Shown: positions 9,571 to 59,116 of the stretch, piece by piece | How positions within the stretch are numbered: position 1 is the first letter of the stretch | Layout: every line of letters begins with the position of its first letter | Assembly (NCBI GenBank): GCA_947302815.1 | Contig: CAMYWO010000001.1 | Location: 42,637-106,636, forward strand | Reading direction: 5' to 3' | From: an uncultured Clostridia bacterium | Lineage (GTDB): Bacteria > Bacillota > Clostridia > Saccharofermentanales > Saccharofermentanaceae | DNA: 64,000 bases | Made by a program: the position numbers and the translations under genes | Notes under the pieces: generated by a model | Told to the model about the DNA's origin: nothing | Databases searched by the model: none | Seen by the model: only the letters and a program-made list of their open reading frames with translations

Positions 9571-9608
9571 GGCATGTGCGGGACAAGTGCTTTTCGGGAG
9601 GAAGGATT

Positions 9609-10058: not shown

Positions 10059-10135
10059 GGATGTTTAGGCTGTCGTGTCTAATAGGTGGTCTAAAGATGG
10101 GCGGCAATTAGGCACGATGTTAGACATATGGCGGT

Positions 10136-15720: not shown

Positions 15721-15844
15721 GGATACCCTCCCATGTAATTGAAAAATAAGCCATAACATTATAGCACGCGTAAAGAGAAAAATCTCCAATCTTCGCTGTT
15801 AGTGTTATAGTGGTAGATAGAGAGAGTTGAGTGGAGGTGGAATC

Positions 15845-23263: not shown

Positions 23264-23281
23264 TAAGGACGTGCATCACGT

Positions 23282-27609: not shown

Positions 27610-27929
27610 GGTACCCCTCCTGCGCAAAGAAAAATACTTGCTTTTGATTATATCACGGATATATGCAGTCTCATCATAGCAGAAAGCGGGGCGGGGGAAT
27701 CACCTCCGACGCTTTCCAAATGTAAATATTATGTAAACGGAATAAGGCAAAAAGTTCCGAAAAACACACTATTCTTGGGCGTTTTTTGTTAGATGAGGCA
27801 GGTGCCTTTATGATAGAATTATTATATCGGATTCTGCCGTGTGTCACGTGGGGGTGTTAGGGGCAGAACAGAGGGTAAGCGAAGTAAAGGCGGTACGGTG
27901 TGCGAGGGGCGTTCACCGGTAGTTGGGGT

Positions 27930-30599
27930 ATGAGAAGATTCCGTGTCAAGTTGACGATAATGATCGTACTGGTCGTTCTGGTCAGTACGGGACTGCTCTC
28001 GATCATCAGTTATCGGAGAGCCAAGCAGAGCGTTTTTACACAGTCGGAAGAGAAGTACCGCGTAGCCGCAGATAAATATGCACAGGAACTGACCACCTGG
28101 CTGAACTCAAATGCCACGATCGTCGATACACTTGCTGCGAACATCGAGTACAGCAGGTTCTTCGACCAGGACGGGGCATTTTTTCATGATTACCTGAAGT
28201 CGGTATACGACAGCCTGAATACGAAGGGCTACATCTACGATATCTATTTCACCTTCCCGGACAATACGATGGCTTGTGCATCGGATTTCGTGGCTGACGG
28301 CACAGTCGACTTCTCACACGAACGTGACTGGTACAGGGTCGCGGCGGAGACGAATGAGATCTATTATTCTGCACCGTATATGGATTCGGATACGAAGAAG
28401 CCGATCATCACGATCTCGAAGGCTGTCCGTGCGGACAGTGAGCTGAAGGGCATTATTGCCGCGGATATCTTCGTGGATGTACTGGTCGACATTATCAACG
28501 AAGCGGATGTGGCCGAAAACAGTTATGCATTCCTTGTTGACCAGAATATGAGTGTGATCGTGCATCCGAATGAAGCGTATTCTTTCACGGAAGATCCGAT
28601 CGGCATGATGCAGGTGCCCGGCTCTCCGTACGCGGAAGTTGTCGCGAATATCCGCGCGGATTCCGATGAGACAGTCTACGTAGAGGACTACGATGGAGTT
28701 ACCCGCGGGATCGTTGTCTCCAGAATGGAGAACAGCGGATGGCATGTCGGTATCGCCACCAGCAAAACTGAGATGAAGAAAGGCCTCGGCGGTCTTGTCA
28801 GAAGCTACCTGATCGCCGCCAGTATCGCCGCTCTTATCGGCGGAACGATCGCGGTCATCCTTGCATATGTGATGGACAAGAACAGCAAGCAGCAGCAGGA
28901 GTATGCGGAGAAGGTACTGCGTCTTGAGAAGCAGGCGGCCGATGAAGCAAGTAAAGCGAAGAGCCGTTTCCTCGCTGATATGTCCCATGAGATCAGAACC
29001 CCGATCAACGCGATCCTCGGCATGAATGAGATGATCATCCGTGAGACGGATAATCGGGAGATCATGGGTTATTCCAGAAATATCCGCCAGTCCGGACAGA
29101 ATCTTCTGGCTCTGGTCAACAGTATCCTCGACTTCAGTAAGATCGAGAATGGTAAGATGGAGATCGTTTCTGCGCCGTACAACGTGAAGTCGCAGATCTC
29201 CTACGTGATGAACTCGATCTCGGAGAGAGCCCGCGCGAAGGATCTCGAACTCGTACTCGATGTCGATCCTTCGATCCCCACGGAGCTTTACGGCGATAAC
29301 ACCCGTATCAACGAGGTCATCATGAACCTGCTGACGAATGCCGTAAAGTACACGGAACAGGGCACGGTTACGCTGACGATTAAGGGTAAGGAACGTAAGG
29401 AAGATCCGGAGAAGCAGATCCTCCTTTACGTCGAAGTCAAGGACACCGGCATCGGCATCAAGGAAGAAGACATGAAGCGTCTCTTCGAATCCTTTGAGAG
29501 ACTGGACGTGCAGAGAAACAGGAATATCGAGGGCACAGGTCTCGGTATGTCGGTATGTACGAAGCTCCTCGGCCTGATGAACAGTGAACTGAAGGTCAAG
29601 AGCAAGTACGGCGAGGGTTCCGTGTTCTGGTTCGAGCTGTGGCAGAAGGTCGAAAACGATGAACCGATCGGCGAATTTGAAGTCACGAATGCCGAGGCGG
29701 AGAGCGACGAAATATACAGAGAAGCTTTCCATGCACCGACGGCGCTCATCCTGATCGTCGACGATACCAAGATGAATATCGCCGTAGCGGCCAGCCTCCT
29801 GAAGAAGACGGGTATCCGTATTCACACGGCGCTCAGCGGAGAAGAGGCGATCCGTCTGTCCGATGAGAATAAGTACGACATGATCCTGATGGACCAGAGA
29901 ATGCCCGGCATGGATGGTACCGAAGCGATGAACGAGATCCGCGGTCTTGGCAATAAGCTCAATGAGAAGACCCCGATTATCTGCCTGACAGCGGACGTTA
30001 TCCGCGGCGCCAGAGAAAGATATATCGCGCAGGGCTTCGACGATTATCTGACCAAGCCGATCGACGGACGTGAGCTGGAGAAGATGCTGCTTACGTATCT
30101 GCCGGAGGAGAAGATCGAGATCGTTGAGGAGTCTTCTGAAGAAAACCGTACCGCGCAGGATGAAAGTACGGAAGTGCTTTTCGAGGCGCTGGCTAAAGCC
30201 GGGGTGGATGTGAAGACGGGGCTTTATTTCTGTCAGAATGACAGGGATATGTATACGTCGATCCTGACCGAATACTGCTCTGAGCAGAAGACCAAGCTCC
30301 CGAACATTCAGACCTGCTATGAGGTACATGACTGGAAGAACTATGAGATCTATATCCACTCACTGAAAAGCACCAGTAAGACGATCGGCGCGAAGAAGCT
30401 CTTCGAGCTGGCGGCGGATCTGGAGGCGGCTGCCGGACGCGGGGATGAGCTCGCGATCACGGACGGACACGGTAAGGCGATGGATCTGTATACGAAGACT
30501 GTCCGGGCGATCGAGGAAAACCTGGAGATAAAACAGAATGATATTGACGAGGAGGATGAGATTTTCGAATTCCTCCCGGAGGAGAATAACGAGGACTAG
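27930..30599 (+). CDS. Hybrid sensor histidine kinase: TM - Cache-like sensor - TM - HisKA - HATPase - REC - HPt
   Basis: H-box FLADMSHEIRTPINAILGM; N/G boxes NLLTNAVKYT, DTGIGI, GTGLGMS; receiver DMILMDQRMPGMDG; HPt HSLKSTSKTIGA. The periplasmic segment of about 280 aa has YYSAPYMDSDTKKPIITISKAV. The start at MRRFRVKL is uncertain. Confidence 0.9.
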   Translation: MRRFRVKLTIMIVLVVLVSTGLLSIISYRRAKQSVFTQSEEKYRVAADKYAQELTTWLNSNATIVDTLAANIEYSRFFDQDGAFFHDYLKSVYDSLNTKGYIYDIYFTFPDNTMACASDFVADGTVDFSHERDWYRVAAETNEIYYSAPYMDSDTKKPIITISKAVRADSELKGIIAADIFVDVLVDIINEADVAENSYAFLVDQNMSVIVHPNEAYSFTEDPIGMMQVPGSPYAEVVANIRADSDETVYVEDYDGVTRGIVVSRMENSGWHVGIATSKTEMKKGLGGLVRSYLIAASIAALIGGTIAVILAYVMDKNSKQQQEYAEKVLRLEKQAADEASKAKSRFLADMSHEIRTPINAILGMNEMIIRETDNREIMGYSRNIRQSGQNLLALVNSILDFSKIENGKMEIVSAPYNVKSQISYVMNSISERARAKDLELVLDVDPSIPTELYGDNTRINEVIMNLLTNAVKYTEQGTVTLTIKGKERKEDPEKQILLYVEVKDTGIGIKEEDMKRLFESFERLDVQRNRNIEGTGLGMSVCTKLLGLMNSELKVKSKYGEGSVFWFELWQKVENDEPIGEFEVTNAEAESDEIYREAFHAPTALILIVDDTKMNIAVAASLLKKTGIRIHTALSGEEAIRLSDENKYDMILMDQRMPGMDGTEAMNEIRGLGNKLNEKTPIICLTADVIRGARERYIAQGFDDYLTKPIDGRELEKMLLTYLPEEKIEIVEESSEENRTAQDESTEVLFEALAKAGVDVKTGLYFCQNDRDMYTSILTEYCSEQKTKLPNIQTCYEVHDWKNYEIYIHSLKSTSKTIGAKKLFELAADLEAAAGRGDELAITDGHGKAMDLYTKTVRAIEENLEIKQNDIDEEDEIFEFLPEENNED

Positions 30600-30609: not shown

Positions 30610-32991
30610 ATGGCGAAGTGGGTTATGGTCGTGGATGACGATACCGCGAACCTGAAAATGGCTGGACACATCTTAAGCAGGAACAACATGCGCGTGACGG
30701 CGCTCAAGTCGGGGCACGCGTTACTTGAATATTTACCCGAGAAAGGATTTCCGGATCTGATCCTTCTGGACATCAAGATGCCCGGGATCGACGGATTTGA
30801 GACGCTGAAGCTTCTCCGTGAATACGAGAAGTCCGTCAACGCCGAGGCGACACCTGTCATCTTCCTGACGGCCGATGAGGATACGAACACCGAGACGCGC
30901 GGATTTGAGATGGGCGTATCGGACTTCGTAAGAAAGCCATTTAATCCGGATGTTCTGATGCGAAGGATCGACAACGTCATGTCGAGCCGCTCCGAGATGC
31001 AGAACTTAAAGAGTGAAGCGTCGATCGACAAGCTTACCGGACTTCTGAATAAGGGCGCGACCGAGGCCATGATGACCAAGGTCTGCGCGAACACGACCGG
31101 ATGTCTGATGATGATCGATCTCGACTCCTTTAAGCCCGTCAACGATATTTACGGCCACGATATGGGCGATAAGGTGCTCCTGGGCTTTGCAAAGATCATT
31201 CAGAACGCCGTGCCGGAGGGAAGCACCTGCGGACGACTGGGCGGTGACGAGTTCATCGCATTTGCCAAGGGTGTGCTGAACGAGACGACGGTCGCGTCGA
31301 TCACGAGCCGCCTGAATGACGAAGTCGTCGCCATGGCCAAAGACCTGATGGGAGAGGATATGGATATTCCGCTCGGCGCATCGATCGGCGCGATCTATGT
31401 GCCCCGTCACGGAAACGATTTCAATACGCTCTTTAAGCTCGCCGACAAGGCGCTCTATACGGTAAAGAAGAACGGCAAACACGGTTACAGCCTCTATTCG
31501 GCCGAGTCCTTCGACGATGACGAAGGAGGAGATGCACTTCCGGATATCTCGGCGATCTCCGGTATCCTCGGAGAGAGAACGATCCCCGATGTGGCACTGC
31601 AGCTTGATAAGGATTCTTTCTCGCCTGTGTACCGTTACATCATCCGCTACATCATCCGTAACAGGATCAGCGCGTGCAAAGTGCTTTTTACGCTGGGAAA
31701 AGCGGAAGATGTTTCCTCTGAAGAATACATGGAACTCCTCGATGAGTTCGGAAACCACATCCGCGAGTCGCTCCGTAAGTCAGACATCCTGATGAGAAAC
31801 CGCAAGAACCAGTACTTCGTTTTCCTGACGGATATCCGCGAGGACAGTACGGGCAAGGTCATTAACCATATCGTCGAAAGATGGGAACGCCATATGGGAA
31901 GAAGGCTCGTCGTCACCTACGAGAGCGAATTCCTCGGCAACGAATATGAAACGAAGTTCAATAAGAAGAAAGACAGAAACGTCATTATCGTTGATGACGA
32001 TGCCATGAACCTGCAGGTCGCGGGCAAGATCTTAAGCTCCGGCGGTATCCGCGTGACGGCGCTGAAGTCCGGAAAAGCACTGCTGGCTTACATTCAGGAT
32101 GGCGGCGGATGTCCGGATCTTATCCTTCTCGATGTTAAGATGCCGGATATGGACGGATATGAGACGTTGCAGAAGCTCCGCGCGATCAGTGCGGATGCGG
32201 CGAAGATCCCGGTCATGTTCCTGACCGCGGACGAGAGCCAGGGCGCAGAGAGTAAAGGCCTTGCACTCGGTGCGATGGACTTTATCCGCAAGCCTTTCGT
32301 TCCGGAAGTTCTGCTTCTGCGTGTGCGGCACATGATCGAACTGGTTACACTCCAGAACCAGCTCAACTTCGAAGTTCAGAAGAAGACACAGGAGAACCGG
32401 CTTCTCCTCGTGCACGTTGTCGAGTCACTTGCGGCGGCGATCGATACCAAGGACATCTATACGAGAGGTCACTCGGGACGTGTCGCGGAGTATGCCAAGA
32501 AGATCGCGGCGCGTGCAGGATATTCCGAATTCCGTCAGGATGAGGTCTACATGATGGGACTTCTTCACGATGTCGGCAAGATCGGAATTCCGAATGAGAT
32601 CATCAACAAGCCGTCAGCACTGACGGACGACGAGTTTGCCAAGATCAAAGAGCATCCGGGGATGGGTGCGAAGATCCTCTCGAATATTAAAGAGGATCCG
32701 GAACTGACGGTCGCGGCTCGTTACCATCACGAGAGATTCGACGGAAGAGGATATCCGGACGGGCTCTCGGGGTTCGATATTCCGGAAGCGGCGAGGATCA
32801 TCGCCGTTGCAGATGCCTATGATGCTATGTCGAGTAACCGAAGCTACAGGGAAAAACTGACGGACGAGAAGATCATGGCGGAACTGAACAACGGAAAAGG
32901 TTCCCAGTTCGATCCGAAGTTCGCGGATATCATGATTGAGATCATGAAAGAGAAGCTCGAACAAGAATCTAAGGAGAATGCAAATGACTAA
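30610..32991 (+). CDS. Dual-receiver c-di-GMP turnover protein: REC - GGDEF - degenerate GGDEF-like - REC - HD-GYP
   Basis: Start MAKWVMVVDDD (RBS AGGAGGG). REC1 DLILLDIKMPGIDG. Intact GGDEF at 31240-31254 (RLGGDEFIAF). REC2 DLILLDVKMPDMDG. HD-GYP motifs LLHDVGKIGIP and HHERFDGRGYPDG. Confidence 0.9.
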   Translation: MAKWVMVVDDDTANLKMAGHILSRNNMRVTALKSGHALLEYLPEKGFPDLILLDIKMPGIDGFETLKLLREYEKSVNAEATPVIFLTADEDTNTETRGFEMGVSDFVRKPFNPDVLMRRIDNVMSSRSEMQNLKSEASIDKLTGLLNKGATEAMMTKVCANTTGCLMMIDLDSFKPVNDIYGHDMGDKVLLGFAKIIQNAVPEGSTCGRLGGDEFIAFAKGVLNETTVASITSRLNDEVVAMAKDLMGEDMDIPLGASIGAIYVPRHGNDFNTLFKLADKALYTVKKNGKHGYSLYSAESFDDDEGGDALPDISAISGILGERTIPDVALQLDKDSFSPVYRYIIRYIIRNRISACKVLFTLGKAEDVSSEEYMELLDEFGNHIRESLRKSDILMRNRKNQYFVFLTDIREDSTGKVINHIVERWERHMGRRLVVTYESEFLGNEYETKFNKKKDRNVIIVDDDAMNLQVAGKILSSGGIRVTALKSGKALLAYIQDGGGCPDLILLDVKMPDMDGYETLQKLRAISADAAKIPVMFLTADESQGAESKGLALGAMDFIRKPFVPEVLLLRVRHMIELVTLQNQLNFEVQKKTQENRLLLVHVVESLAAAIDTKDIYTRGHSGRVAEYAKKIAARAGYSEFRQDEVYMMGLLHDVGKIGIPNEIINKPSALTDDEFAKIKEHPGMGAKILSNIKEDPELTVAARYHHERFDGRGYPDGLSGFDIPEAARIIAVADAYDAMSSNRSYREKLTDEKIMAELNNGKGSQFDPKFADIMIEIMKEKLEQESKENAND

Positions 32992-35659
32992 TCCGAAACA
33001 GGCCTCCGAACAGAGCGAACTATTCCATTCATCCCACCTGATGGTGCTGATCACATTTACGGTATGTACGGCACTGCTCATCGGAGAATCGATCCTGATG
33101 GGCTGGGAACTGTTTATCCTTCCACCGATCTGTGTCGCCGTGATCATCTGCTGGGTCGTTCACTTCAGACAGGACGCATCTCCCGTATTCCGCCTGCGGA
33201 TATACGGTATCCTGATGATGTGTACGGCCTTTTTCTATGGTATCCACCGCACATCGACCTTTGATCTTGCCATCGTCATGGCCATGCTGATCATCCTTTT
33301 CACGACGACCGGCATGAAGGGCCTGATTACGATGTGCCAGATCACATACTATGCGACCATGGCTTATAACCTGTCCGTCATGGCTTATGAGGGAGAGACC
33401 TTTGACTCCCTGACAGTGACAAGGATCATTCTTCATCTGGCACTTATATTCGTAGTCGGATGGTTTGCAAAACTGATCATCGACAGATGGACACAGGTGA
33501 TCACGAATTCGCAGGATGAGATCGTTCAGCTGACCGAAGCGACAGAGCGTCTCAATGATTTTCTCGCAAATGTTTCCCATGAGATCAGAACTCCTGTTAA
33601 TGCCGTTATCGGACTGACCAGCATCTGTATCGAGAAGTCCCAGAACCGTGAGATCTACGGCGATCTGGTCGCCGTACGCGAGGCCGGCCGCAGGGTGGCG
33701 GATCAGATCAGTGATATTCTCGACTACTCCGAACTCGACCGAAAGAAAGCCGTCAGCAATAACGAAGACTATATGCTCAGTTCTGTCCTCCACGATCTCG
33801 TAACCGAGCTTCGTGTGATCAAGTCCAAAGAAGTAGAGCTGATCATTGATGTAGACCCGGCGATCCCGGCGGTCATGAATACGGATGTCTCGAAACTGAA
33901 GAAGATCCTCCGTGCGCTGATCGGCAACGGACTGAAGTATACGAAAAAGGGCGGCGTCTATGTACGTATCGTCAGTGAGAAACAGAGCTACGGCGTCAAC
34001 CTCTGTATCGAGGTCACGGATACCGGTATCGGTATGTCGGACTATGAACTCGAGAAGGTCTACGACAGTTTCTATCAGGCGGATTCCGGCCGTGCGAGAA
34101 TGGGCGGCGGATTAGGCCTCGGCCTTGCGATCGTATCCGGATTTGTCTCGCTCCTCGGCGGCTTTATGACCATCACGAGCAAGCAGGATCACGGTACGAC
34201 CGTTCATGTCAGCCTGCCGCAGAAGGTGATCGATCCGACGAGCTGCATGTCTGTTGCACATCCTGACGAACTGATCCTCGGTGCGTATCTCCACTTCGAA
34301 AAATACTCCGACCCGCAGGTGCGTGATTACTATAACTCCATGGTACTCAACATCGTTAAGGGCCTGGGTGTCCAGATGCACCGTGTAAATAATCCGGAGG
34401 ATCTCAAGCTCCTGCACAGCACGATCCACATGACACACCTTTTCGTTGCGGAAGAAGAGTATGCTTCCAATATTGATATGATCGAAGAATATGCCAAGGA
34501 CATGATCGTCGTTGTAGTAGCAAACGGGGACTTCAAGCTTTCCGCAGGCTCCCGCGCGAGAGTCATGGAAAAGCCGTTCTACTGTTTCCCGGTCGTATCC
34601 GTTCTCAACTCGAGTATCCATGATAAACAGACCGCCGGATTTAAGATGTACTGCAAGGGCGTCAAGGCACTGGTCGTCGACGATGAACCGATGAACCTGG
34701 TCGTTGGCAAGAGCATCTTTAAGAGCTACGGCATGGAAGTTACCACAGTGCTTTCCGGACAGGAATCGATCGATATCTGCAGAGAACAGGTCTTCGACAT
34801 TATCTTCATGGACCACATGATGGGCGGCATGGACGGTGTCGAGGCGATGAAGAGGATCCGCGCGGATGTCGCGGGAAAGAACGGCGAGGTACCGATCGTT
34901 GCGCTTACGGCCAACGCGATGAGTTCTGCCAAGCAGATGTTCCTGTCTGAGGGCTTTGACGGATTCGTCAGTAAGCCGATCGAGACGGATGAACTCGAGC
35001 GCGTCATGCGTCAGGTGCTTCCGAAGGCACTTGTTACCTACGAAGAGATCGAGAAGATCGCGGCTACAGAAACGGATTATGAGGAGATGCGCAGAGAACC
35101 TTCCCCGAAGGTCAGTGCACTTTCTCTCCGTGAACAGCTCAAGCCGTATTCGGTCGACACCGATGCCGGCATGAAGTACTGCATGGGTGACTTTGATTTC
35201 TATAAGTCGCTGCTGGTCCAGTTCGCGACCGAGTCTGAGCAGAAGATTCCCCTGATCGGAAGATACTATGAGTCTTCCGACTGGAAGAATTATGAGATCC
35301 TCGTGCATGCTCTGAAGAGTACGTCGAAGATGATCGGTGCCGGCAATCTTTCCGAGTCGGCAAAAGAACTCGAGATGGCGGCGAAGGAGAAGAAGGAAGA
35401 ATTCATCGCCGAGAACCACTACCCGCTGATGGGTGAGTACAGCCATCTGGCGAAAGGACTTTCTGCGATCCTTTCTGATGAGATCGAGGCGGCCCGAAAG
35501 GAAAAGAATAAGACGGAGGACGAAACGGAAGTATCTTCTGAGCCGGAAGAGGAAGTCTTCGAGTTCTCCGCAGGTGAAGACTCGCCGGAAAATAAGGAGA
35601 ATGATGAGGAGATCCTCGAGTTCATTCCCGAAGATGAGGAAGGAGGGGTAGAAAAATGA
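32984..35659 (+). CDS. Hybrid sensor histidine kinase: multi-TM - HisKA - HATPase - pseudo-receiver-like spacer - REC - HPt
   Basis: Start at the second ATG (AAGGAG 7 nt upstream); overlaps the upstream stop. FLANVSHEIRTPVNAVIGL; DTGIGMS; GGGLGLGLAI; DIIFMDHMMGGMDG; HALKSTSKMIGA. Acidic C-terminal tail. Confidence 0.88.
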   Translation: MTNPKQASEQSELFHSSHLMVLITFTVCTALLIGESILMGWELFILPPICVAVIICWVVHFRQDASPVFRLRIYGILMMCTAFFYGIHRTSTFDLAIVMAMLIILFTTTGMKGLITMCQITYYATMAYNLSVMAYEGETFDSLTVTRIILHLALIFVVGWFAKLIIDRWTQVITNSQDEIVQLTEATERLNDFLANVSHEIRTPVNAVIGLTSICIEKSQNREIYGDLVAVREAGRRVADQISDILDYSELDRKKAVSNNEDYMLSSVLHDLVTELRVIKSKEVELIIDVDPAIPAVMNTDVSKLKKILRALIGNGLKYTKKGGVYVRIVSEKQSYGVNLCIEVTDTGIGMSDYELEKVYDSFYQADSGRARMGGGLGLGLAIVSGFVSLLGGFMTITSKQDHGTTVHVSLPQKVIDPTSCMSVAHPDELILGAYLHFEKYSDPQVRDYYNSMVLNIVKGLGVQMHRVNNPEDLKLLHSTIHMTHLFVAEEEYASNIDMIEEYAKDMIVVVVANGDFKLSAGSRARVMEKPFYCFPVVSVLNSSIHDKQTAGFKMYCKGVKALVVDDEPMNLVVGKSIFKSYGMEVTTVLSGQESIDICREQVFDIIFMDHMMGGMDGVEAMKRIRADVAGKNGEVPIVALTANAMSSAKQMFLSEGFDGFVSKPIETDELERVMRQVLPKALVTYEEIEKIAATETDYEEMRREPSPKVSALSLREQLKPYSVDTDAGMKYCMGDFDFYKSLLVQFATESEQKIPLIGRYYESSDWKNYEILVHALKSTSKMIGAGNLSESAKELEMAAKEKKEEFIAENHYPLMGEYSHLAKGLSAILSDEIEAARKEKNKTEDETEVSSEPEEEVFEFSAGEDSPENKENDEEILEFIPEDEEGGVEK

Positions 35660-38403
35660 AAGGCATTATCGACTACATTTTCAGACCCTCGACACACGAT
35701 CCGGAAGTCGTGAAGTCAATCTATAAAGGAATGGTAAGGACTACGCGCGCAATGGTTGCTTTTGCCATGGCATTTGTCTTCGCGTTCTTTGTCTGGACGC
35801 TCATCGAGCCTTCCGCGTTTGATAACAGTCTGCCGTTCCACAGACTTCTCTATCTTTCATTCCTGCTCACAGGCTGTTTCTGGTTCCTTCTTGTAAACTA
35901 CGCGATGAAGGATTTCGACACAAGATATAAGGTCATGCACTTCTCGAGTCCATTCCTGGGCGTCATGATCTACGGACTTTGTATCGCACTGTCGTTTGTA
36001 AACGTACACTTTAATTCCTATATCGATACGACGATCTTCCTGGCTGTATCACTGATGGTACCGATATGTATTTATCTGAAGCCTCTGGAGTACATCTGCC
36101 TTGTCACAGTCTCGGATGCGGGCATGGGACTTCTGGTTTACATCGCATATGCAAAGAAGCATATCACGTCACAGGAATCCTTTGTTAACTTCCTCGTGTT
36201 CCTCATCTTCCAGATGGTTATGGGTGTCGTCATGCTCTACACGAAGTACTGCCTGCAGAAAGAGATCGTTACGGCGAACCGCCAGCATCAGGAGATCGAG
36301 ATGCTCAACAAGGCGCAGAACAGTTTCTTCTCGAACATGAGCCATGAGATCAGAACACCGATCAACACGATTATCGGACTTAACGAGATGATCCTTCGTG
36401 AGGATGTCAGTGAGGAGGTTATGGAAGATGCCGCCAACATCAAGTCGGCAGGTAAACTCCTTCTGAACCTGATCAACGATATCCTCGATATGTCGAAGAT
36501 CCAGTCGGGCAGAATGCAGCTGCTTTCTGCTCCTTATCAGACAGGCGAGATGCTCTCGGATCTTGTCGGTATGATGTGGATCCGCGCCAAGGAAAAGAAA
36601 CTCGATTTCCATGTCGATGTCTCACCGGAGATCCCGAATGAACTCATCGGTGACGATGTCCGCATCAAGCAGATCCTGATCAATGTCCTCAATAACGCCG
36701 TCAAGTATACGAAAGAGGGTTCCGTTACTCTGTCTGTCCAGTGTGAAATGGCCGATGAGCATACCTGCAACATGATCTATAACGTGACGGATACCGGCGT
36801 CGGTATCAAGCCTGAGGATATCCCGTATCTGTTCTCGGCATTTAAACGTGTGGATGAAGATTCGAACAAACATATCGAGGGTACAGGCTTAGGTCTTTCC
36901 ATCGTTAAGCAGCTTGTTGATCTCATGGGCGGTAAGGTCACCGTAAACAGTGTCTACACCAAGGGATCCACATTCATTATCGAGATCCCACAGAGATGTG
37001 AGACTGAGTCAAAGGTCGGTCAGTACAACTTTGACAAGGCCGGCGCACTCAGCCATAAGCAGGAATATGTGCCGAAGTTCGAGGCTCCGGAAGCAAGGAT
37101 CCTCGTCGTCGACGATAACGAAGCGAACCTCATGGTCGTCAGCAAACTCCTGCGTGAGACAAAGGTGCGTATCGACACTGCTATGAGCGGCGCCGAGGCA
37201 CTCAGAAAGACACTGAACATCCGTTATGATGTAATCTTCATGGATCATCTTATGCCGGAGATGGACGGTATCGAGTGCAAAAGGAGGATCCTGGAGCAGA
37301 CCGGCGGACGCAGCCGTGAGACAAGTATCGTTATCCTGACGGCAAACGCGGATGAGGAGAACCGTGCGCTCTATGCGAAGGAGAACTTCGACGGATATCT
37401 GGTCAAGCCGGTCAGCGGTTCGGAACTGGAAAATGAACTGTACCGTCTCCTGCCGAAGGATATCGTGCATATCACCGGTAACCGCACGGAGATCGCGGAA
37501 GAGTCAATCTCCTGGATGAACGGCAGCAAGATGAGAAAGAGAGTCGTAATCACGACCGAGAGTGTTGCCGATCTTCCGCAGGAACTGATCGACAAGTACG
37601 ATATCGCCGTTCTGCCGCATAAGGTCCGGACCGCCGAAGGTATCTTCAAAGACGGAAAGGAAATCGATACCAAAGGTATCCTGAAGTATATGGAGGATGA
37701 TACCCGCTCGGTCATGACAATGGCGCCGGAAGTGAAGGAAGTCGAAGAGTTCTTCTCAAGACAGCTCACGATTGCGAATAACATCATTCACATCTCCATC
37801 TCGAGCAAGGTTGAGCACAGCGGATTTGCCGTGGCAAAAGAAGCTGCGAAATCGTTCGACAGCGTATTCGTTCTGGATACCGGTCACCTCTCGAGCGGTC
37901 AGGGTATCCTGGCAATCGAAGCCTGCCGTATGGCGGAGGATGGAAAGAGTCCGGAGGAGATCCAGGCCCGCATCGAAAGCTTGAAGAAGAAAGTACACAC
38001 GAGCTTCATCGTGGATAACCTTGACTTCCTTGCCAGAGCCAAGCAGGTCAGTAAAGGCGTGGCCAACCTGGTAAATTCTCTTATGGGAAGACCGGTGCTG
38101 GTACTTAAGAAAGGTAATATGGGACTGGGCAAGCTCTACTTCGGTTCCAGAAAGAGAGCCTGGAAAAAGTATATCAACAAGTGCCTCGCCAGTGAGAGAC
38201 CGATCGATACGAGAATCCTGTTCGTGACCTATGTCGGTATCAGCAAGCGTGATATGGATTGGATCCGTGAGCAGATCAACAAGCGTATGACATTCGATGA
38301 GGTCTACTTCCAGCAGGCCTCCCCGGCAATCGCCGTTAACTGCGGCCCGGGCACATTCGGACTTCTTCTCCGTGAGAAAGATAAAGAAGAGCGGAAGGCG
38401 TAG
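35656..38403 (+). CDS. Hybrid sensor histidine kinase fused to a C-terminal DegV-like domain: multi-TM - HisKA - HATPase - REC - DegV
   Basis: ATGA overlap with the upstream gene. FFSNMSHEIRTPINTIIGL; DTGVGIK; GTGLGLSIV; DVIFMDHLMPEMDG. From about 37540: RVVITTESVADLPQELIDKYDIAVLPHKV...VLDTGHLSSGQGILAIEACRMAEDGKSPEEI...FIVDNLDFLARA...NCGPGTFGLLL, which follows the DegV pattern. Confidence 0.88.
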   Translation: MKGIIDYIFRPSTHDPEVVKSIYKGMVRTTRAMVAFAMAFVFAFFVWTLIEPSAFDNSLPFHRLLYLSFLLTGCFWFLLVNYAMKDFDTRYKVMHFSSPFLGVMIYGLCIALSFVNVHFNSYIDTTIFLAVSLMVPICIYLKPLEYICLVTVSDAGMGLLVYIAYAKKHITSQESFVNFLVFLIFQMVMGVVMLYTKYCLQKEIVTANRQHQEIEMLNKAQNSFFSNMSHEIRTPINTIIGLNEMILREDVSEEVMEDAANIKSAGKLLLNLINDILDMSKIQSGRMQLLSAPYQTGEMLSDLVGMMWIRAKEKKLDFHVDVSPEIPNELIGDDVRIKQILINVLNNAVKYTKEGSVTLSVQCEMADEHTCNMIYNVTDTGVGIKPEDIPYLFSAFKRVDEDSNKHIEGTGLGLSIVKQLVDLMGGKVTVNSVYTKGSTFIIEIPQRCETESKVGQYNFDKAGALSHKQEYVPKFEAPEARILVVDDNEANLMVVSKLLRETKVRIDTAMSGAEALRKTLNIRYDVIFMDHLMPEMDGIECKRRILEQTGGRSRETSIVILTANADEENRALYAKENFDGYLVKPVSGSELENELYRLLPKDIVHITGNRTEIAEESISWMNGSKMRKRVVITTESVADLPQELIDKYDIAVLPHKVRTAEGIFKDGKEIDTKGILKYMEDDTRSVMTMAPEVKEVEEFFSRQLTIANNIIHISISSKVEHSGFAVAKEAAKSFDSVFVLDTGHLSSGQGILAIEACRMAEDGKSPEEIQARIESLKKKVHTSFIVDNLDFLARAKQVSKGVANLVNSLMGRPVLVLKKGNMGLGKLYFGSRKRAWKKYINKCLASERPIDTRILFVTYVGISKRDMDWIREQINKRMTFDEVYFQQASPAIAVNCGPGTFGLLLREKDKEERKA

Positions 38404-38500
38404 AAGTGATATAATAATCTTGTGATTCTGGAATACCGTTTCGAAAGGAACGGTATTCTTTTAGGGTATTGGGTACATTGTTCAGAGTATAGGGGTCCAT

Positions 38501-41500
38501 ATGAAAAAACCGTGGAATATTGTAATTGTTCTTTTGTGTTCGGTTCTTGTGTGCACGAGCGTATTTCTGCTGTCTAAGAGTGCATTTTCTCCGAGAGCCG
38601 AAGTCGATCTTCAGATCGATACCGGAAGTGAAGAAGTTCAGGTGGGAGAGCAGTTCCAGATATCTTTGGAAGCTAAGAACACCGGACGCGGCGATATGAA
38701 TAATGTTGAACTTGAACTGATCCTGCCGGAGGAGCTCGGTCTTCGCAAGAACAGTCCTGATCAGACTCGTTACTGGAACAGCCTTTCTTCCGGAGATGCA
38801 TTGTCTACGTATGTTCTTACTGAAGCTTTATCGGAAGCGGATGAAGATTCTGTAGTTAGCGAGAATACGAGTTTTCTTGGTAAAGTCGATGATATTGCTA
38901 CGAAAGTGGCACCGTTTGTGGCCGTCCTTGCGGTTCTTGGACTGGTCCTCATTTATGTGATCAGCAAAGAAGGCAAGATCCTGATGGCAGTGTCGCTGGT
39001 AGTTGCGATCCTGTGTGGTTTCCTGGCGCCGACGATTTATTATGCGGTCACCAGCAGCAGTCTTTCATATAAAGAGACAATTACCCAGGAAATCTCGGTC
39101 GCCGGAAAAACAATGACGATCGAAGGTGTCATCCGTTATAACAAGGAAGAACCGGTTTCAGAGACGAACGAGTATTATTTGGTGTATAACTCGAACGGCG
39201 GAAACGAAGTAGCATTTCAGAAAGTCAATGAAAATGAGTTAGCGACTGTTCCGGAATTCCCAAGCAAGGATGGTTTTGATTTCACCGGTTGGTATCTGGA
39301 TGAAGAATGCAAGAATCAGTTCGATTTCGATTCTCAGCATGTTACGGAAGATATCATACTGTATGCCGGATGGGTCGATGAAAGGTATGGTTGGGATTCT
39401 GATGGAGATGGAATCACGAATATCCTTGAAAAAAAGTACGGTTCGGATCCATTTGTTTTTAACGATACAAATATTGATTTTGATGGTGATTTGATTCCCG
39501 ATTATTCGGAACAGTATATTTTTAAAACAAGCTACCAGTCGAAGGATACGGATGGAGACAGGTTAAGTGATTACGAGGAATTGTCGATCACTCTGACAGA
39601 TCCTACGCTTACGGATTCGGATTCGGATGGAGTGGATGACTACAGTGCTGACGCGGATGCGGATTCGCTGAGTAATGGTGAGGAAATCGAAGCCCAGACA
39701 TGTCCTTTGATCGCAGATACAGATGCAGATGGCCTGAATGATTCTGCGGAATTAAAAGAATTGAAGACCGATCCGTTAGAGCCGGATACAGATGGAGATC
39801 AGGCAAGAGACGGATGGGAAGTTGACAACGGAAGTGATCCGCTTGCCAAGAATACAAAGTTCAGCGTATCCTCGACTGAGACATCTTCAGATGGAAAAGT
39901 GATTGCCACTGTTGATATGTCGCTGGAAGGAGACCCTGAGGCGGTTACATTTGAACAATCAGACGTTGACCAGCTGCTGGACGAAACCATCCCCGGATGT
40001 ATTGGTGCACCTTTTGTCTTAGAGGCAGACGGAGACTTTACAGAGGCTACCGTTAAGTTTGCATTTGACAGCAGCAGTATTCCTCAGGATGCTGAGTTAA
40101 CTATCTGTGTATACAATGAAGATACAGGTCTTCTTGATCCTATTCCGACAACGATCGACGGAAATGTGGCCAGCGGAACTGTTTATCATTCCTCGACCAT
40201 GGTGCTTTTGAATAAGAGACAGCTTGATGATGTATGGTCCAATGATATTCTTTCCCCAGATTCTGAAGCATACAAAGAGAGTGTATTTGATATCGCGTTT
40301 GTTATCGACTACTCAGCAAGTATGGATGACAATGATCCGGACAGACTCAGAATCGAGATCGTAAAGCAGTTTATAAGTAAGCTTCGTGACGGTCAGGACC
40401 GGGCGGCGGTAGTCAAGTTCGCAAAGTATGCGACTTTGCTCGTGCCTTTGTCCCAGGATAAGACGCTTCTGACGAATACGGTTGACAGTATTACTAATGC
40501 ATCTAGTGACGGATGTGATGATGAGGCCGGTACGAACGGGTCCGACGGACTGCATGCGGCGCTGGAAGAACTGAAGGCATCTTCTGCGGAAGGAGATTTC
40601 AAGTACATCATATTCCTTACAGATGGTGAGGATAACAACACCAGTTATGATTACGATGTGCTGATCCAGGATGCCATCGATAATCATATCACCATCTTCT
40701 CGATTGGTATGGGAGATGCAGATGAGGATCTTCTGAAAAGGATCGCAGAGTCCACCGGCGGCAAGTACTATTTTGCTACTGCAGTTGATCTGGAAGACAC
40801 TTCGAAGGATGGCCTGATGGACGCTTTCCATGACATTGAGGTATCTACGCTCGATCTGGAAACGGATTCAAATAATGATGGTATCAGTGATTATTATACA
40901 AAGCTTCTTTGCGAAGGAAAACTCAGGACCGGTACAGGTGTTCCTCTGTTTGAAGGCATTTCGTATGACGAAGTACAGAGTTCGGATGACTACGATCAGG
41001 ATGGTATTCCGAATGGCGAAGAGGTGATCGTAAAGTATGATGCGGCCACAGGAAAGACATACATCGCGGTAGTGTCATCACCAACGAATCCGGATACGGA
41101 CGGTGATGGAGTCAAAGACGGAGATGATCCTGAACCGCGGAAGAAGGGCCTTGCCGGCGGTATCATCGGCAAGCTAACACTGGTATCCTGTTACAATGAA
41201 GAAGATTCAGGCTGGACCAGCGGACACGCATTCTTTGTCTATACGAGCTATATAAATGATTCTATCGACTTTACCGGACTGCGCGCAGGCTGGCAGAAAG
41301 GCGATCGAAGTCAACCCTGGTCTGCAAGTAATATCGTCAGGGATGATACGGCAACGAGCGGATATGTTGTTGTGCCGGGAGAGAGTCTGGCCATAGGTGA
41401 TGGTGCAAATGGTGCAGGCTTTGAGAGTCTTATTGATGATAAAGGATCAAGTATCGGTCGTGGTGATACTAATGGTGTTTCGTATAATATGGAAGCCTAT

Positions 41501-41806
41501 AAGCGCTATGCGAACAACTATAACTATATTCACAATACTTATATTTCGATGGATATTACAGAGCAGCAATTACGTTCGATCATTTCATATTGCAGCAGAT
41601 CGGATGTATGTTACTGGTCGTTGACGCACAATTGTGCTACGGTAGCTGCTCAGGTTTGGAACCGGATCTCGGAGGACAAAGTCAATCCGTACTCTGCAGA
41701 ATTTATGCTTGGCGGGGTAGCGACACCAAAGGGAATGAAGATTGATCTCCGAAAGAAGCCGAACCATGGAGAAGACTTTGATTTTATCGGTGCACTCGGC
41801 CTTTGA
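38501..41806 (+). CDS. Giant surface protein: signal anchor - CARDB-like - 2 TM - Listeria/Bacteroides repeat - TSP3 calcium-binding repeats - vWA - TSP3 - C-terminal His...Cys domain
   Basis: 1101 aa. FTGWYLDEECKNQFDFDSQHVTEDIILYAGW (Listeria/Bacteroides repeat). DSDGDGITN, DTDGDRLSDYEE, DSDSDGVDDY, DTDADGLNDSAE, DTDGDQARDGWE (TSP3-type). vWA MIDAS DIAFVIDYSASMDD...IIFLTDGEDN. C-terminal SGHAFFVYTS ... YWSLTHNCATVAAQVW. Confidence 0.85.
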   Translation: MKKPWNIVIVLLCSVLVCTSVFLLSKSAFSPRAEVDLQIDTGSEEVQVGEQFQISLEAKNTGRGDMNNVELELILPEELGLRKNSPDQTRYWNSLSSGDALSTYVLTEALSEADEDSVVSENTSFLGKVDDIATKVAPFVAVLAVLGLVLIYVISKEGKILMAVSLVVAILCGFLAPTIYYAVTSSSLSYKETITQEISVAGKTMTIEGVIRYNKEEPVSETNEYYLVYNSNGGNEVAFQKVNENELATVPEFPSKDGFDFTGWYLDEECKNQFDFDSQHVTEDIILYAGWVDERYGWDSDGDGITNILEKKYGSDPFVFNDTNIDFDGDLIPDYSEQYIFKTSYQSKDTDGDRLSDYEELSITLTDPTLTDSDSDGVDDYSADADADSLSNGEEIEAQTCPLIADTDADGLNDSAELKELKTDPLEPDTDGDQARDGWEVDNGSDPLAKNTKFSVSSTETSSDGKVIATVDMSLEGDPEAVTFEQSDVDQLLDETIPGCIGAPFVLEADGDFTEATVKFAFDSSSIPQDAELTICVYNEDTGLLDPIPTTIDGNVASGTVYHSSTMVLLNKRQLDDVWSNDILSPDSEAYKESVFDIAFVIDYSASMDDNDPDRLRIEIVKQFISKLRDGQDRAAVVKFAKYATLLVPLSQDKTLLTNTVDSITNASSDGCDDEAGTNGSDGLHAALEELKASSAEGDFKYIIFLTDGEDNNTSYDYDVLIQDAIDNHITIFSIGMGDADEDLLKRIAESTGGKYYFATAVDLEDTSKDGLMDAFHDIEVSTLDLETDSNNDGISDYYTKLLCEGKLRTGTGVPLFEGISYDEVQSSDDYDQDGIPNGEEVIVKYDAATGKTYIAVVSSPTNPDTDGDGVKDGDDPEPRKKGLAGGIIGKLTLVSCYNEEDSGWTSGHAFFVYTSYINDSIDFTGLRAGWQKGDRSQPWSASNIVRDDTATSGYVVVPGESLAIGDGANGAGFESLIDDKGSSIGRGDTNGVSYNMEAYKRYANNYNYIHNTYISMDITEQQLRSIISYCSRSDVCYWSLTHNCATVAAQVWNRISEDKVNPYSAEFMLGGVATPKGMKIDLRKKPNHGEDFDFIGALGL

Positions 41807-59070: not shown

Positions 59071-59116
59071 AATATGCACCCCTCGTTTGTCATTTTTACT
59101 TTACATAATTATACAC

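What the first reader, a model, noticed from the sequence alone, without database searches (positions are those of the whole stretch)
35656..38403. Histidine kinase - receiver - DegV fusion: a fatty-acid-binding fold wired to a phosphorelay
The last roughly 285 residues of this 915-aa hybrid kinase (about 37540-38385) follow the DegV pattern along their full length. The matching segments are RVVITTESVADLPQELIDKYDIAVLPHKV..., ...VFVLDTGHLSSGQGILAIEACRMAEDGKSPEEI..., ...FIVDNLDFLARA... and ...NCGPGTFGLLL.

DegV/FakB proteins are normally stand-alone fatty-acid carriers that partner with the kinase FakA. Here the fold is placed C-terminal to a receiver domain, in the position an output domain normally occupies. 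This suggests either phosphorylation-controlled lipid binding or release, or lipid sensing that feeds back on the kinase.

The canonical N-terminal DSTSDL-type motif reads ESVADL, so ligand specificity may differ.
Basis: partly seen in the sequence, partly recalled or inferred. Interest (0 to 1): 0.65.

Follow-up and report, generated by a model that had tools for sequence, protein, structure and literature searches.

The report
Sensor kinase carrying a fatty-acid-binding-type domain
A membrane-bound signalling kinase of a rumen bacterium really does end in a domain built like the fatty-acid carrier FakB/DegV. The same fusion recurs in many rumen bacterial species next to an enzyme that makes and breaks the messenger c-di-GMP, so it is probably an undescribed lipid-type sensor rather than a lipid carrier.

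Summary
ORF 35656-38403 (+) encodes a 915-aa protein with six predicted TM helices, then HisKA, HATPase, REC and a full-length DegV domain. The DegV hit is Pfam PF02645 at E 5e-45 and TIGR00762 at 163 bits (cutoff 99.7). The AF2 model has pLDDT 92, and its top 45 PDB matches are all fatty-acid-binding DegV/FakB proteins.

The fusion is not a one-off. Of the 80 closest loci in species-representative genomes, 76 hold an uninterrupted ~890-925 aa reading frame of the same build. It is the last gene of a conserved module: a c-di-GMP response regulator (REC-GGDEF-REC-HD-GYP), a partner hybrid kinase with Hpt, then this kinase without Hpt.

In related kinases the same DegV subfamily sits N-terminal to the TM bundle, or between REC and Hpt. 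This argues for a sensory or regulatory module rather than a receiver-controlled output.

The window's clade has changed the FakB carboxylate site: Arg170→Gln (77/77), His264→Asn (77/77), Ser93→Glu with a remodelled loop. It is a DegV-fold domain but not a working FakB, and its ligand is unknown.

No paper on such fusions was found, and databases call them "DegV family EDD domain-containing protein". The closest working analogy is DSF fatty acid→RpfC→RpfG (HD-GYP). I rate it a new variant of a known kind, interest about 0.6.

The parts
27900..30599 (+). HK1: hybrid kinase with an extracellular dCache sensor, then HisKA-HATPase-REC-Hpt. It is the first gene of the window's operon but is lineage-specific.
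   Evidence: Pfam. TM helices at residues 18-36 and 295-313 flank the dCache domain. It lies upstream of the RR only in the closest relatives (L083, L084, L143, L126).
30610..32991 (+). Response regulator REC1-GGDEF-REC2-HD-GYP, a c-di-GMP synthase/phosphodiesterase and the likely output of the relay. The listed ORF starts at 30538. The likely true start is the ATG at 30610, which follows an AGGAGG site just after the HK1 stop.
   Evidence: Pfam. GGDEF motif intact at residue 235, HD at 677, GYP at 738; receiver Asp at D78 and D532. The order RR>HK2>HK3-DegV is conserved.
32978..35659 (+). HK2: multi-TM hybrid kinase HisKA-HATPase-(~150 aa unassigned spacer)-REC-Hpt. It is a paralog of HK3 and carries the only Hpt of the HK2/HK3 pair.
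   Evidence: Pfam. 4-5 predicted TM helices. Aligns with HK3 over the core, 29% over residues 93-447. An HK2-type Hpt lies directly upstream of HK3 in 76/80 loci.
35656..38403 (+). HK3, the finding: a 915-aa hybrid histidine kinase, 6TM-HisKA-HATPase-REC-DegV, with no Hpt.
   Evidence: An uninterrupted ~890-925 aa reading frame of the same build is found in 76 of the 80 closest genome loci.
35749..36237 (+). N-terminal membrane region with six predicted TM helices (residues 32-194) and only short loops. It is poorly conserved.
   Evidence: Hydropathy scan. Mean pairwise identity among 77 orthologs is 33%, against 83% for the kinase core.
36316..36993 (+). Kinase core: HisKA (residues 221-285, phospho-acceptor His230 in SHEIRTP) and HATPase_c (residues 332-446).
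   Evidence: Pfam. His230 is invariant in 77/77 orthologs.
37099..37437 (+). Receiver domain (residues 482-594) with the complete D486/D487/D530/T562/K584 set.
   Evidence: Pfam. All five residues are invariant in 77/77 orthologs.
37438..37542 (+). Conserved REC-DegV linker (residues 595-629). Near-invariant residues are L599, P600, G608, E616, S619, W620 and M621.
   Evidence: Conservation table. In the AF2 model there is a helix followed by a low-confidence stretch at model residues 142-150.
37543..38373 (+). DegV/FakB-fold domain (residues 630-906) of a divergent Asn-type subfamily. Residues at the FakB2 ligand positions are T688 (Thr61), E720 (Ser93, plus a 1-residue insertion), Q797 (Arg170) and N895 (His264). 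Clade-specific invariant residues are H712, H744, S746, S747 and R794.
38430..38462 (+). Hairpin followed by TTTT directly after the HK3 stop. It is a probable intrinsic terminator that closes the operon.
   Evidence: RNA fold gives -20.2 kcal/mol, z -5.5 against shuffles. The consensus scan did not call it because the tail has only 4 T.

Best explanation
HK3 is a membrane-anchored hybrid histidine kinase. Its conserved C-terminal DegV (FakB-fold) domain most likely acts as a cytoplasmic, membrane-proximal ligand-sensing or regulatory module. It is unlikely to be a lipid carrier.

**Proposed flow.**
1. HK3 autophosphorylates on His230.
2. The phosphoryl group passes to HK3's own receiver, Asp530.
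3. HK3 has no Hpt, so the phosphoryl group is exchanged through the Hpt of the adjacent paralog HK2.
4. It then reaches the two receiver domains of the operon's REC-GGDEF-REC-HD-GYP protein, which sets c-di-GMP.

Occupancy of the DegV pocket would bias this relay. The ligand would be a hydrophobic or amphipathic small molecule taken from the inner membrane leaflet, as FakB takes fatty acids. It could change the kinase/phosphatase balance of HK3, or the hand-off from REC to Hpt.

**What is shown.** The domain identities, the intact catalytic residues, conservation of the fusion and of the RR-HK2-HK3 gene order, the permuted position of DegV in related kinases, and the altered ligand-site residues.

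**What is inferred.** The phosphotransfer route, the sensing role, and the ligand class. In this clade the FakB carboxylate/acyl-phosphate site has been rebuilt (Gln for Arg170, Asn for His264, Glu at Ser93). The ligand may therefore not be a plain free fatty acid.
For: - **Domain identity.** Pfam and NCBIfam hits are well above cutoffs. The AF2 model has pLDDT 92, and all of the top 45 Foldseek hits are fatty-acid-binding DegV/FakB proteins.
- **Functional kinase and receiver.** H230, D486, D487, D530, T562 and K584 are invariant in 77 orthologs.
- **The fusion is conserved.** 76 of the 80 closest loci in species-representative genomes contain an uninterrupted ~890-925 aa reading frame ending in DegV. 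Seventy-seven frames longer than 850 aa were aligned with the window protein.
- **The module is conserved.** RR>HK2>HK3-DegV is seen when anchoring on DegV, and independently when anchoring on the RR in metagenomes (about 42 loci).
- **DegV is under purifying selection; the TM region is not.** Mean pairwise identity is 68% for DegV, with 91 near-invariant positions across linker and DegV (residues 595-915). The TM region is at 33%. DegV is thus the only conserved non-catalytic domain and the best candidate for the input.
- **DegV changes position in related hybrid kinases.** Among the best 150 cluster representatives there are about 50 HK-REC-DegV, 7 HK-REC-DegV-Hpt and 8 DegV-(5-6 TM)-HK-REC-(Hpt). 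A split gene pair, HK plus REC-DegV, also exists.
- **One Hpt per kinase pair, in complementary places.**
  - Here Hpt is on HK2, in 76/80 loci, and HK3 ends right after DegV.
  - In the type B locus L163 and the type C loci L164 and L170, the partner kinase lacks Hpt and the DegV kinase has one.
  - In L168 the partner also lacks Hpt, but no Hpt was detected on the DegV kinase either.
- **The partner regulators found are c-di-GMP enzymes.** These are REC-GGDEF-REC-HD-GYP, REC-HD-GYP, REC-GGDEF and REC-HD-GYP-REC.
- **The domain is not a Fak substrate carrier.** Arg170→Gln is invariant. FakB1 R173A still exchanges fatty acid but is dead in the Fak assay (PMC9136124).
- **The pocket-mouth loops stay near-invariant.** S636-V-A-D639, H744-L-S-S, R794..Q797 and N895-C-G are conserved, so a defined site is kept.
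- **The FakB1 membrane/FakA-binding cap region aligns with a conserved basic/aromatic patch.** R832, W836 and K837 are conserved (chained alignment, moderate reliability).
- **Known precedent for the logic.** The fatty acid DSF activates the hybrid kinase RpfC, which controls the REC-HD-GYP protein RpfG (PMC5391125).
Against: - No ligand, binding assay or phosphotransfer data exist for any member.
- No model coordinates were available, so the presence and size of a hydrophobic cavity could not be checked.
- In three of the four arrangements seen (this one, REC-DegV-Hpt, and the split REC-DegV protein), DegV directly follows a receiver through a conserved linker. This is also what a receiver-controlled effector looks like.
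- The window clade lost three of the four FakB carboxylate-site residues, and most orthologs also have Pro at Thr61. Fatty-acid binding is therefore doubtful for this clade.
- No solved DegV structure among the top hits has Asn at the His264 position. Ligand binding by the whole Asn-type subfamily is therefore untested.
- Use of HK2's Hpt by HK3 is inferred from gene order only.
- Evidence for transcription is thin: a few metatranscriptome contigs.
Confidence: 0.55

Rival explanations
1. Receiver-controlled output. Phosphorylation of Asp530 switches the DegV domain, for example by opening or closing its cap. The cell would thereby control capture, release or hand-off of a membrane lipid, and DegV would be an effector like the output domain of a response regulator.
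For: - DegV directly follows REC through a conserved linker with L599, P600, E616, S619, W620 and M621.
- The REC-DegV order is kept in the HK-REC-DegV-Hpt type.
- A separate 463-aa REC-DegV gene follows a 421-aa kinase gene in L082. That is the classical response-regulator layout.
Against: - Eight of the best 150 cluster representatives have DegV at the N-terminus, more than 200 residues and a TM bundle away from the receiver.
- P0157 shows HATPase-DegV-Hpt with no detected REC.
- The operon already encodes a dedicated output, GGDEF/HD-GYP.
- Loss of Arg170 rules out feeding the Fak pathway (PMC9136124).
- One tethered domain per kinase molecule is a poor way to move bulk lipid.
Confidence: 0.2
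2. Degenerate DegV used as a protein-protein module. The domain no longer binds a small molecule. Instead it serves as a docking, dimerisation or insulation surface, for example holding HK2's Hpt or the RR near the receiver.
For: - The canonical ligand residues are replaced.
- The DegV-like C-terminal domain of FakA is itself a protein-docking module that binds FakB (PMC9136124, PMC10848957).
- HK3 lacks an Hpt of its own and must meet one in trans.
Against: - The replaced positions are themselves invariant (Q797 and N895 in 77/77), and neighbouring pocket-loop residues are near-invariant. This is typical of a working site, not a decayed one.
- Many fused relatives keep the Ser/Ser/Arg set.
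- The AF2 model keeps the complete two-lobe fold at high confidence.
Confidence: 0.15
3. A different chemistry altogether. The EDD fold is shared with DhaK and with the phospho-histidine protein EIIA-Man. The rebuilt polar site (E720, H744, S746, S747, R794, Q797, N895) might bind a polar metabolite or nucleotide, for example c-di-GMP as feedback. Alternatively it might take part in phosphotransfer.
For: - There is an invariant clade-specific His744 and a polar site.
- The operon output is c-di-GMP, so feedback would make sense.
- The EDD fold is known as a phosphotransferase-related fold (Kinch et al. 2005, cited in PMC9136124).
Against: - No sequence or fold similarity to any c-di-GMP receptor was seen. 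All structural neighbours are fatty-acid binders.
- The N-terminal loop that carries the phospho-His in EIIA-Man (from my own knowledge, not tested here) has no His in this protein (ESVAD).
- The HK-REC-DegV-Hpt type still needs an Hpt after DegV, so DegV does not replace it.
Confidence: 0.07

Closest known systems
FakB / DegV fatty-acid-binding proteins (S. aureus FakB1/FakB2, S. suis FakB2 7W7H, T. thermophilus 2DT8, B. stearothermophilus 1PZX)
   Same: Full-length match to the same domain family and the same two-lobe fold. The five motif loops sit in the same places. A basic cap region aligns with the one that docks FakB1 on membranes.
   Different: - It is fused to a membrane kinase rather than being a ~280-aa soluble protein.
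- Arg170→Gln, His264→Asn, and Ser93→Glu with a 1-residue insertion; Thr61 is Pro in most orthologs.
- It therefore cannot present a substrate to FakA in the way FakB does (PMC9136124).
- No fakA gene is present in the window.
RpfC-RpfG DSF signalling of Xanthomonas (fatty acid → hybrid kinase → REC-HD-GYP → c-di-GMP)
   Same: A multi-TM hybrid kinase and a receiver-HD-GYP c-di-GMP phosphodiesterase are encoded together. A fatty-acid-type signal is the proposed or known input (PMC5391125).
   Different: RpfC senses DSF with a short N-terminal periplasmic/TM segment, not with a DegV domain. No RpfF-like synthase was seen in the operon. The RR here also carries GGDEF and a second REC. It occurs in Gram-positive rumen Clostridia. 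Homology to RpfC beyond the generic kinase core was not tested.
Vibrio LuxN/LuxQ/CqsS-LuxU-LuxO type funnel (several hybrid kinases sharing one Hpt)
   Same: Two or three hybrid kinases lie in one operon with only one Hpt for the HK2/HK3 pair. NCBIfam's LuxQ model is among the best sub-threshold matches to the core (247 bits against a cutoff of 1200).
   Different: Here the shared Hpt is a domain of one of the kinases, not a separate LuxU. The output is a c-di-GMP enzyme, not a sigma-54 activator.
ArcB/BarA/TorS-type tripartite hybrid kinases (HK-REC-Hpt)
   Same: The core order is the same, and these are the best (sub-threshold) NCBIfam matches. Relatives of type HK-REC-DegV-Hpt are tripartite kinases with DegV inserted before the Hpt.
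   Different: HK3 itself has no Hpt. All scores are far below the equivalog cutoffs, so it is not an ortholog of any of them.
EDD-fold proteins used as ligand sensors for regulators (DhaK/DhaL with DhaR in E. coli; DhaQ with DhaS in Lactococcus). This comes from my own knowledge and was not checked here.
   Same: A substrate-binding EDD-fold protein has been recruited to report ligand occupancy to a regulator.
   Different: Those act on transcription factors as separate proteins and bind dihydroxyacetone. Here the fold is fused into a phosphorelay.

Membership tests
DegV domain family (Pfam PF02645 / NCBIfam TIGR00762) | Full-length HMM match above the curated cutoff | tested here: met
   PF02645: 154 bits (cutoff 27), profile positions 2-278 of 280. 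TIGR00762: 163.4 bits (cutoff 99.7).
DegV domain family (Pfam PF02645 / NCBIfam TIGR00762) | Two-lobe EDD-type fold superposable on solved DegV structures | tested here: met
   AF2 model pLDDT 92. Foldseek top 45 hits are all DegV/FakB, with target-normalised TM 0.79-0.89.
Functional FakB (fatty-acid carrier of fatty acid kinase) | Conserved Arg (FakB2 R170 / FakB1 R173), essential for FakA-dependent phosphorylation | tested here: not met
   Gln797 in the window and in 77/77 orthologs. Pairwise HMMER and profile-profile alignments agree, with no gaps nearby. Role of the Arg: PMC9136124, PMC10848957.
Functional FakB (fatty-acid carrier of fatty acid kinase) | Thr61/Ser93/His264 hydrogen-bond network to the fatty-acid carboxylate | tested here: not met
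   T688 is kept in the window but is Pro in 53/77 orthologs. Ser93 aligns with E720 (E in 58/77, never Ser), with a 1-residue insertion. The near-invariant S722 two residues on could partly substitute, which is unresolved. His264 aligns with N895 (77/77).
Functional FakB (fatty-acid carrier of fatty acid kinase) | Stand-alone soluble ~280-aa protein working with a FakA encoded in the genome | tested here: not met
   The domain is the C-terminus of a 915-aa membrane protein. No fakA or second DegV is in the 64-kb window. The rest of the genome could not be examined.
Functional FakB (fatty-acid carrier of fatty acid kinase) | Enclosed hydrophobic tunnel holding a long-chain fatty acid | not testable with these tools
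   Model coordinates are not returned, so no cavity analysis or docking was possible.
Hybrid histidine kinase (HisKA class) | H-box His in the DHp domain, and a complete HATPase_c domain | tested here: met
   SHEIRTP with H230 invariant. HATPase_c covers profile positions 1-109 of 111. N, G1, F and G2 box motifs were read by eye in the translation.
Hybrid histidine kinase (HisKA class) | Fused receiver domain with the acidic pocket, phospho-Asp, Thr and Lys | tested here: met
   D486, D487, D530, T562 and K584 are invariant in 77/77 orthologs.
Tripartite (ArcB/BarA/TorS-type) kinase | C-terminal Hpt domain in the same polypeptide | tested here: not met
   No Hpt hit in HK3, and the protein ends 9 residues after the DegV match. 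Hpt is present on HK2. All equivalog scores are far below cutoff.
Rpf/DSF quorum-sensing system | Hybrid kinase encoded with a REC-HD-GYP regulator | tested here: met
   The RR carries REC and HD-GYP with HD and GYP motifs intact. The gene order is conserved.
Rpf/DSF quorum-sensing system | RpfF-type enoyl-CoA hydratase signal synthase, and an RpfC-type N-terminal DSF-binding segment | not tested
   No such gene lies among the operon genes or the neighbours scanned, but no dedicated search was made. I claim a working analogy only, not membership.

The most novel reading that the evidence does not exclude
The DegV/FakB fold has been recruited as a signal-input domain of two-component phosphorelays. 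A kinase-tethered FakB-like domain would sample a fatty acid or related lipid from the inner membrane leaflet and set c-di-GMP through a GGDEF/HD-GYP regulator. This would be a counterpart, found mainly in rumen Clostridia, of proteobacterial DSF signalling. It would let rumen bacteria couple dietary or microbial lipid signals to attachment, pili or biofilm decisions. The window's clade, with its rebuilt polar site, may have moved on to a non-carboxylate ligand.
Probability: 0.4. Interest if true: 0.78.

Novelty: new variant of a known kind. Interest (0 to 1): 0.6.

Why it matters
**A new job for the DegV fold.** DegV/FakB proteins are known only as carriers that feed exogenous fatty acids into phospholipid synthesis. 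Here the same fold is a conserved part of hybrid histidine kinases in rumen and gut anaerobes. All of the 76 closest uninterrupted reading frames checked have this build, and it appears in three permuted positions. The partner regulators found nearby are c-di-GMP enzymes. If the domain is a ligand sensor, it defines a new class of input domain for two-component systems.

**A testable route from lipids to c-di-GMP.** It would link lipid signals to c-di-GMP in Gram-positive gut bacteria, where fatty-acid signalling of the DSF type has not been described. Rumen long-chain fatty acids strongly affect fibre-degrading Gram-positive bacteria (from my own knowledge), so the system may bear on how these organisms respond to dietary fat.

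**An annotation problem.** These roughly 900-aa signalling proteins are named after one domain, "DegV family EDD domain-containing protein". That name hides the kinase.

Tried and rejected
- **Apparent stand-alone REC-DegV proteins.** The first homolog search returned many proteins of 375-506 aa. I first read them as stand-alone REC-DegV regulators. Most are fragments on short contigs, or gene calls that start inside the receiver, for example at 'MDDN...'. Only L082 shows a clean split into a kinase gene plus a REC-DegV gene.
- **Solved DegV with Asn at the His264 position.** A 60-aa C-terminal query gave only chance hits such as lectins and ribosomal protein L3. A stand-alone Asn-type protein (P0132) hits only His-type structures.
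- **Broussard et al. 2016 on FakB conserved residues.** The paper is not held under its DOI or its PMC id. Residue roles were taken from PMC10848957 and PMC9136124 instead.
- **Consensus terminator scan.** It did not call the hairpin after HK3 because the tail has only 4 T. Folding supports the hairpin.
- **Exact look-up of the window protein's contig.** It found nothing, although the cluster look-up shows the protein is in the collection.
- **HK1 (dCache) as part of the conserved module.** Rejected, because it is present only in the closest relatives.
- **DegV as a substitute for the missing Hpt.** Rejected, because relatives carry both DegV and Hpt.
- **Literature searches.** Searches for DegV together with histidine kinase, receiver, output domain or hybrid kinase, and for 'DegV domain', gave only incidental co-mentions.
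- **RNA evidence.** Only a few low-depth metatranscriptome contigs were found. This is too thin to show operon structure.


Full report

Yes. The ORF 35656-38403 (+) is open for 915 codons. It starts 8 nt after a GGAGG ribosome-binding site and overlaps the stop of the preceding gene (ATGA).

Pfam assigns four domains:
- HisKA, residues 221-285.
- HATPase_c, residues 332-446.
- Response_reg, residues 482-594.
- DegV, residues 630-906, end to end (profile positions 2-278 of 280, E 5.4e-45).

NCBIfam TIGR00762 (DegV) also passes its cutoff, at 163 bits against 99.7. The isolated domain matches 21 DegV/FakB sequences of the PDB.

An AlphaFold2 model of residues 475-915, built on 65 aligned sequences, has mean pLDDT 92. 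It shows a short disordered stretch in the REC-DegV linker. The 45 best Foldseek matches in the PDB are all fatty-acid-binding DegV/FakB proteins, with target-normalised TM 0.79-0.89.

The N-terminal 200 residues carry six predicted TM helices with short loops.

**2. Is it a one-off?**

No. A scan of one genome per species (GTDB representatives) used an alignment of the DegV domain.
This count can include stand-alone proteins of the same subfamily.
- The best 80 loci are rumen and gut Clostridia: Saccharofermentans, Ruminococcaceae, Lachnospiraceae and Oscillospiraceae.
- The closest is Mageeibacillus sp. UBA1193, at 93% identity.
- Several are cultured strains.

In 76 of these 80 loci the DegV match is the C-terminus of an uninterrupted ~890-925 aa reading frame. 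The remaining four are cut by contig ends or otherwise interrupted.

A search of 1.84 billion cluster representatives gave 254 proteins at E<=1e-30. Among the best 150, classed by length and by where the DegV match lies, with 20 of them checked by Pfam, there are:
- about 50 HK-REC-DegV;
- 7 HK-REC-DegV-Hpt;
- 8 DegV-(5-6 TM)-HisKA-HATPase-REC-(Hpt), one of which also carries dCache;
- 45 stand-alone proteins of about 285 aa;
- 28 fragments.

Public records name the 900-aa proteins "DegV family EDD domain-containing protein", for example SDJ14452.1 from Lachnospiraceae bacterium G41. Runs that hold the window's gene are sheep and bovine gut metagenomes.

**3. Genomic context**

The gene is the last of a same-strand cluster with overlapping or abutting genes.
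- **HK1** (27900-30599): dCache-HisKA-HATPase-REC-Hpt.
- **RR** (30610-32991): REC-GGDEF-REC-HD-GYP. The GGDEF, HD and GYP motifs and both receiver aspartates are intact.
- **HK2** (32978-35659): multi-TM HisKA-HATPase-spacer-REC-Hpt.
- **HK3**: the finding.

A stable hairpin followed by TTTT comes after the HK3 stop (-20.2 kcal/mol, z -5.5).

The order RR>HK2>HK3-DegV holds in essentially all loci with enough flank when anchored on DegV. It holds again, independently, in about 42 metagenome loci anchored on the RR. HK1 is present only in the closest relatives.

HK2 and HK3 are paralogs. HK3 has no Hpt. An HK2-type Hpt lies directly upstream of HK3 in 76/80 loci, and the four misses are loci where HK3 itself is truncated or interrupted.

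In loci of the other architectures the situation is reversed.
- In L163, L164 and L170 the HK2-like partner lacks Hpt and the DegV kinase carries it.
- In L168 the partner also lacks Hpt, but no Hpt was detected on the DegV kinase.

So the pair seems to share one Hpt.

The partner regulators found are all c-di-GMP enzymes: REC-HD-GYP in L081, REC-GGDEF in L163, REC-HD-GYP-REC in L169.

**4. The DegV domain in detail**

Residue roles are taken from the S. suis FakB2 structure paper: Thr61, Ser93 and His264 hold the fatty-acid carboxylate, and Arg170 stabilises it (PMC10848957). [quoted passage not shown]

I mapped these positions in two ways: by HMMER alignment to chain 7w7h_E, which has native numbering, and by profile-profile alignment.

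| FakB2 residue | Window residue | In 77 orthologs |
|---|---|---|
| Thr61 | T688 | T in 24, Pro in 53 |
| Ser93 | E720 | Glu in 58, never Ser |
| Arg170 | Q797 | Gln in 77/77 |
| His264 | N895 | Asn in 77/77 |

A caveat on Ser93: that loop has one extra residue, and a near-invariant Ser722-Gly723 follows. A structural shift could therefore place Ser722 near the ligand. The Arg and His mappings have no gaps nearby and are robust.

The wider subfamily, including its stand-alone members and many fused ones, mostly reads Ser/Thr, Ser, Arg/Lys, Asn at the four positions.
- Asn for His is a subfamily trait.
- Loss of Ser93 and Arg170 is specific to the window's clade.

The clade adds its own invariant residues: H712, H744, S746, S747 and R794.

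Conservation differs sharply between domains. DegV is strongly conserved, at a mean pairwise identity of 68%. There are 91 near-invariant positions across linker and DegV (residues 595-915). The TM region is at 33%.

**5. Most likely mechanism**

The kinase and receiver are intact: H230, D486, D487, D530, T562 and K584 are invariant. HK3 is therefore a working hybrid kinase.

It lacks Hpt, and the pair HK2/HK3 has only one. The simplest route is H230 → D530 → Hpt of HK2 → the receivers of the GGDEF/HD-GYP protein. This is like several hybrid kinases funnelling through one Hpt in Vibrio quorum sensing (from my own knowledge).

I read DegV as the input or regulatory module, for five reasons:
1. 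It is the only conserved non-catalytic domain.
2. Its position is permuted among related kinases: at the N-terminus before the TM bundle, between REC and Hpt, or at the C-terminus.
3. An even number of TM helices puts it in the cytoplasm next to the membrane in every case, which is where FakB collects its ligand (PMC10146087).
4. The operon already has a separate enzymatic output.
5. Loss of the Arg that FakA needs excludes a carrier role.

The ligand is not known. For the family as a whole, a fatty acid is the obvious candidate. For this clade the rebuilt, more acidic and polar site suggests a different head group.

The steps from 'binds a ligand' onwards are inference.

**6. Rival explanations**

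- **Receiver-controlled output (0.2).** It is supported by the conserved REC-DegV linker and by a split REC-DegV gene in L082. The N-terminal architectures argue against it.
- **Degenerate domain used as a docking module (0.15).** This fits the lost residues. It fits poorly with the invariance of their replacements.
- **Polar-metabolite, nucleotide or phosphotransfer role of the EDD fold (0.07).** It has no positive evidence beyond an invariant His744.

**7. Comparison with known systems**

The domain is a member of the DegV family by HMM and by fold. It fails the tests that define a working FakB: the Arg, the carboxylate network, and the stand-alone partner of FakA.

The kinase is a generic HisKA hybrid kinase. 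It is not an ortholog of ArcB, BarA, TorS or LuxQ, since all scores are far below the equivalog cutoffs.

The closest system by logic is DSF → RpfC → RpfG (REC-HD-GYP) (PMC5391125). This is an analogy only, because the sensing element is entirely different.

**8. Novelty and verdict**

The finding is real, conserved and widespread. It is present in databases under an uninformative name. Six searches of the held paper library found no study of any kinase-DegV or receiver-DegV fusion. The library is incomplete, and InterPro could not be consulted.

I rate it a new variant of a known kind: a hybrid kinase phosphorelay that uses a FakB-fold domain. Interest is about 0.6.

What could not be done here:
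- cavity analysis or docking, because no coordinates are returned;
- any ligand or phosphotransfer assay;
- a check for fakA elsewhere in the genome.

Noticed in passing
window 34230-34670 (HK2 residues ~417-564): HK2 has a stretch of about 150 aa with no Pfam match between HATPase_c and REC. HK2-like partners in other loci have the same spacer, and one gives a weak Receiver_CRE1 hit (L170; L164). It may be a pseudo-receiver.
   Followed up: partly
window 43936-45003 (-); L081 14460-21275; L170 11480-13759: A PilT/PilB-type T2SSE ATPase lies 5.5 kb downstream of the operon. Type IV pilus or T2SS-like genes also flank the module in two other loci. These are possible c-di-GMP-controlled targets.
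   Followed up: no
window 38501-41806 (+): A 1101-aa surface-type protein with DUF11, a Listeria-Bacteroides repeat, bacterial TSP3 repeats and a VWA domain lies directly downstream. It is not syntenic in relatives.
   Followed up: partly
L170 (Logan SRR5192845 contig), genes at 4959-10072 and 15309-16769: A DegV-N-terminal hybrid kinase sits in a contig that also encodes a Fib_succ_major domain protein. This suggests a Fibrobacter-like host. One REC+DegV hit is labelled Treponema sp. (P0088). The fusion may therefore cross phylum boundaries within the rumen.
   Followed up: no
L166 1487-7281: Two DegV-containing kinase genes lie in tandem: HK-REC-DegV-Hpt followed by a 905-aa HATPase+DegV protein.
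   Followed up: no
P0157 (816 aa): This protein shows HATPase_c, DegV and Hpt with no receiver detected between them. It is either a divergent REC or a genuinely REC-less variant.
   Followed up: no
window 55617-57350 (-) and 57415-59079 (-): Two adjacent large ORFs (576 and 553 aa) have no Pfam family at E<=1e-5.
   Followed up: no
window 22331-26585 (+): A MoxR-type AAA_3 ATPase, a DUF58 protein and an 803-aa transglutaminase-core protein lie in a row. Together with the VWA protein downstream of HK3, this resembles Bat/MoxR-VWA type clusters.
   Followed up: no
window 10281-13451 (-): A 1055-aa DUF2298 membrane protein.
   Followed up: no
window 29912-30042, 34596-34679, 36890-37102: Contigs of one run of unknown type (X27) skip 129, 82 and 211 nt at these places. 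Only 20-24 letters lie on the shorter side of each joint. They are probably assembly chimeras between strains.
   Followed up: no
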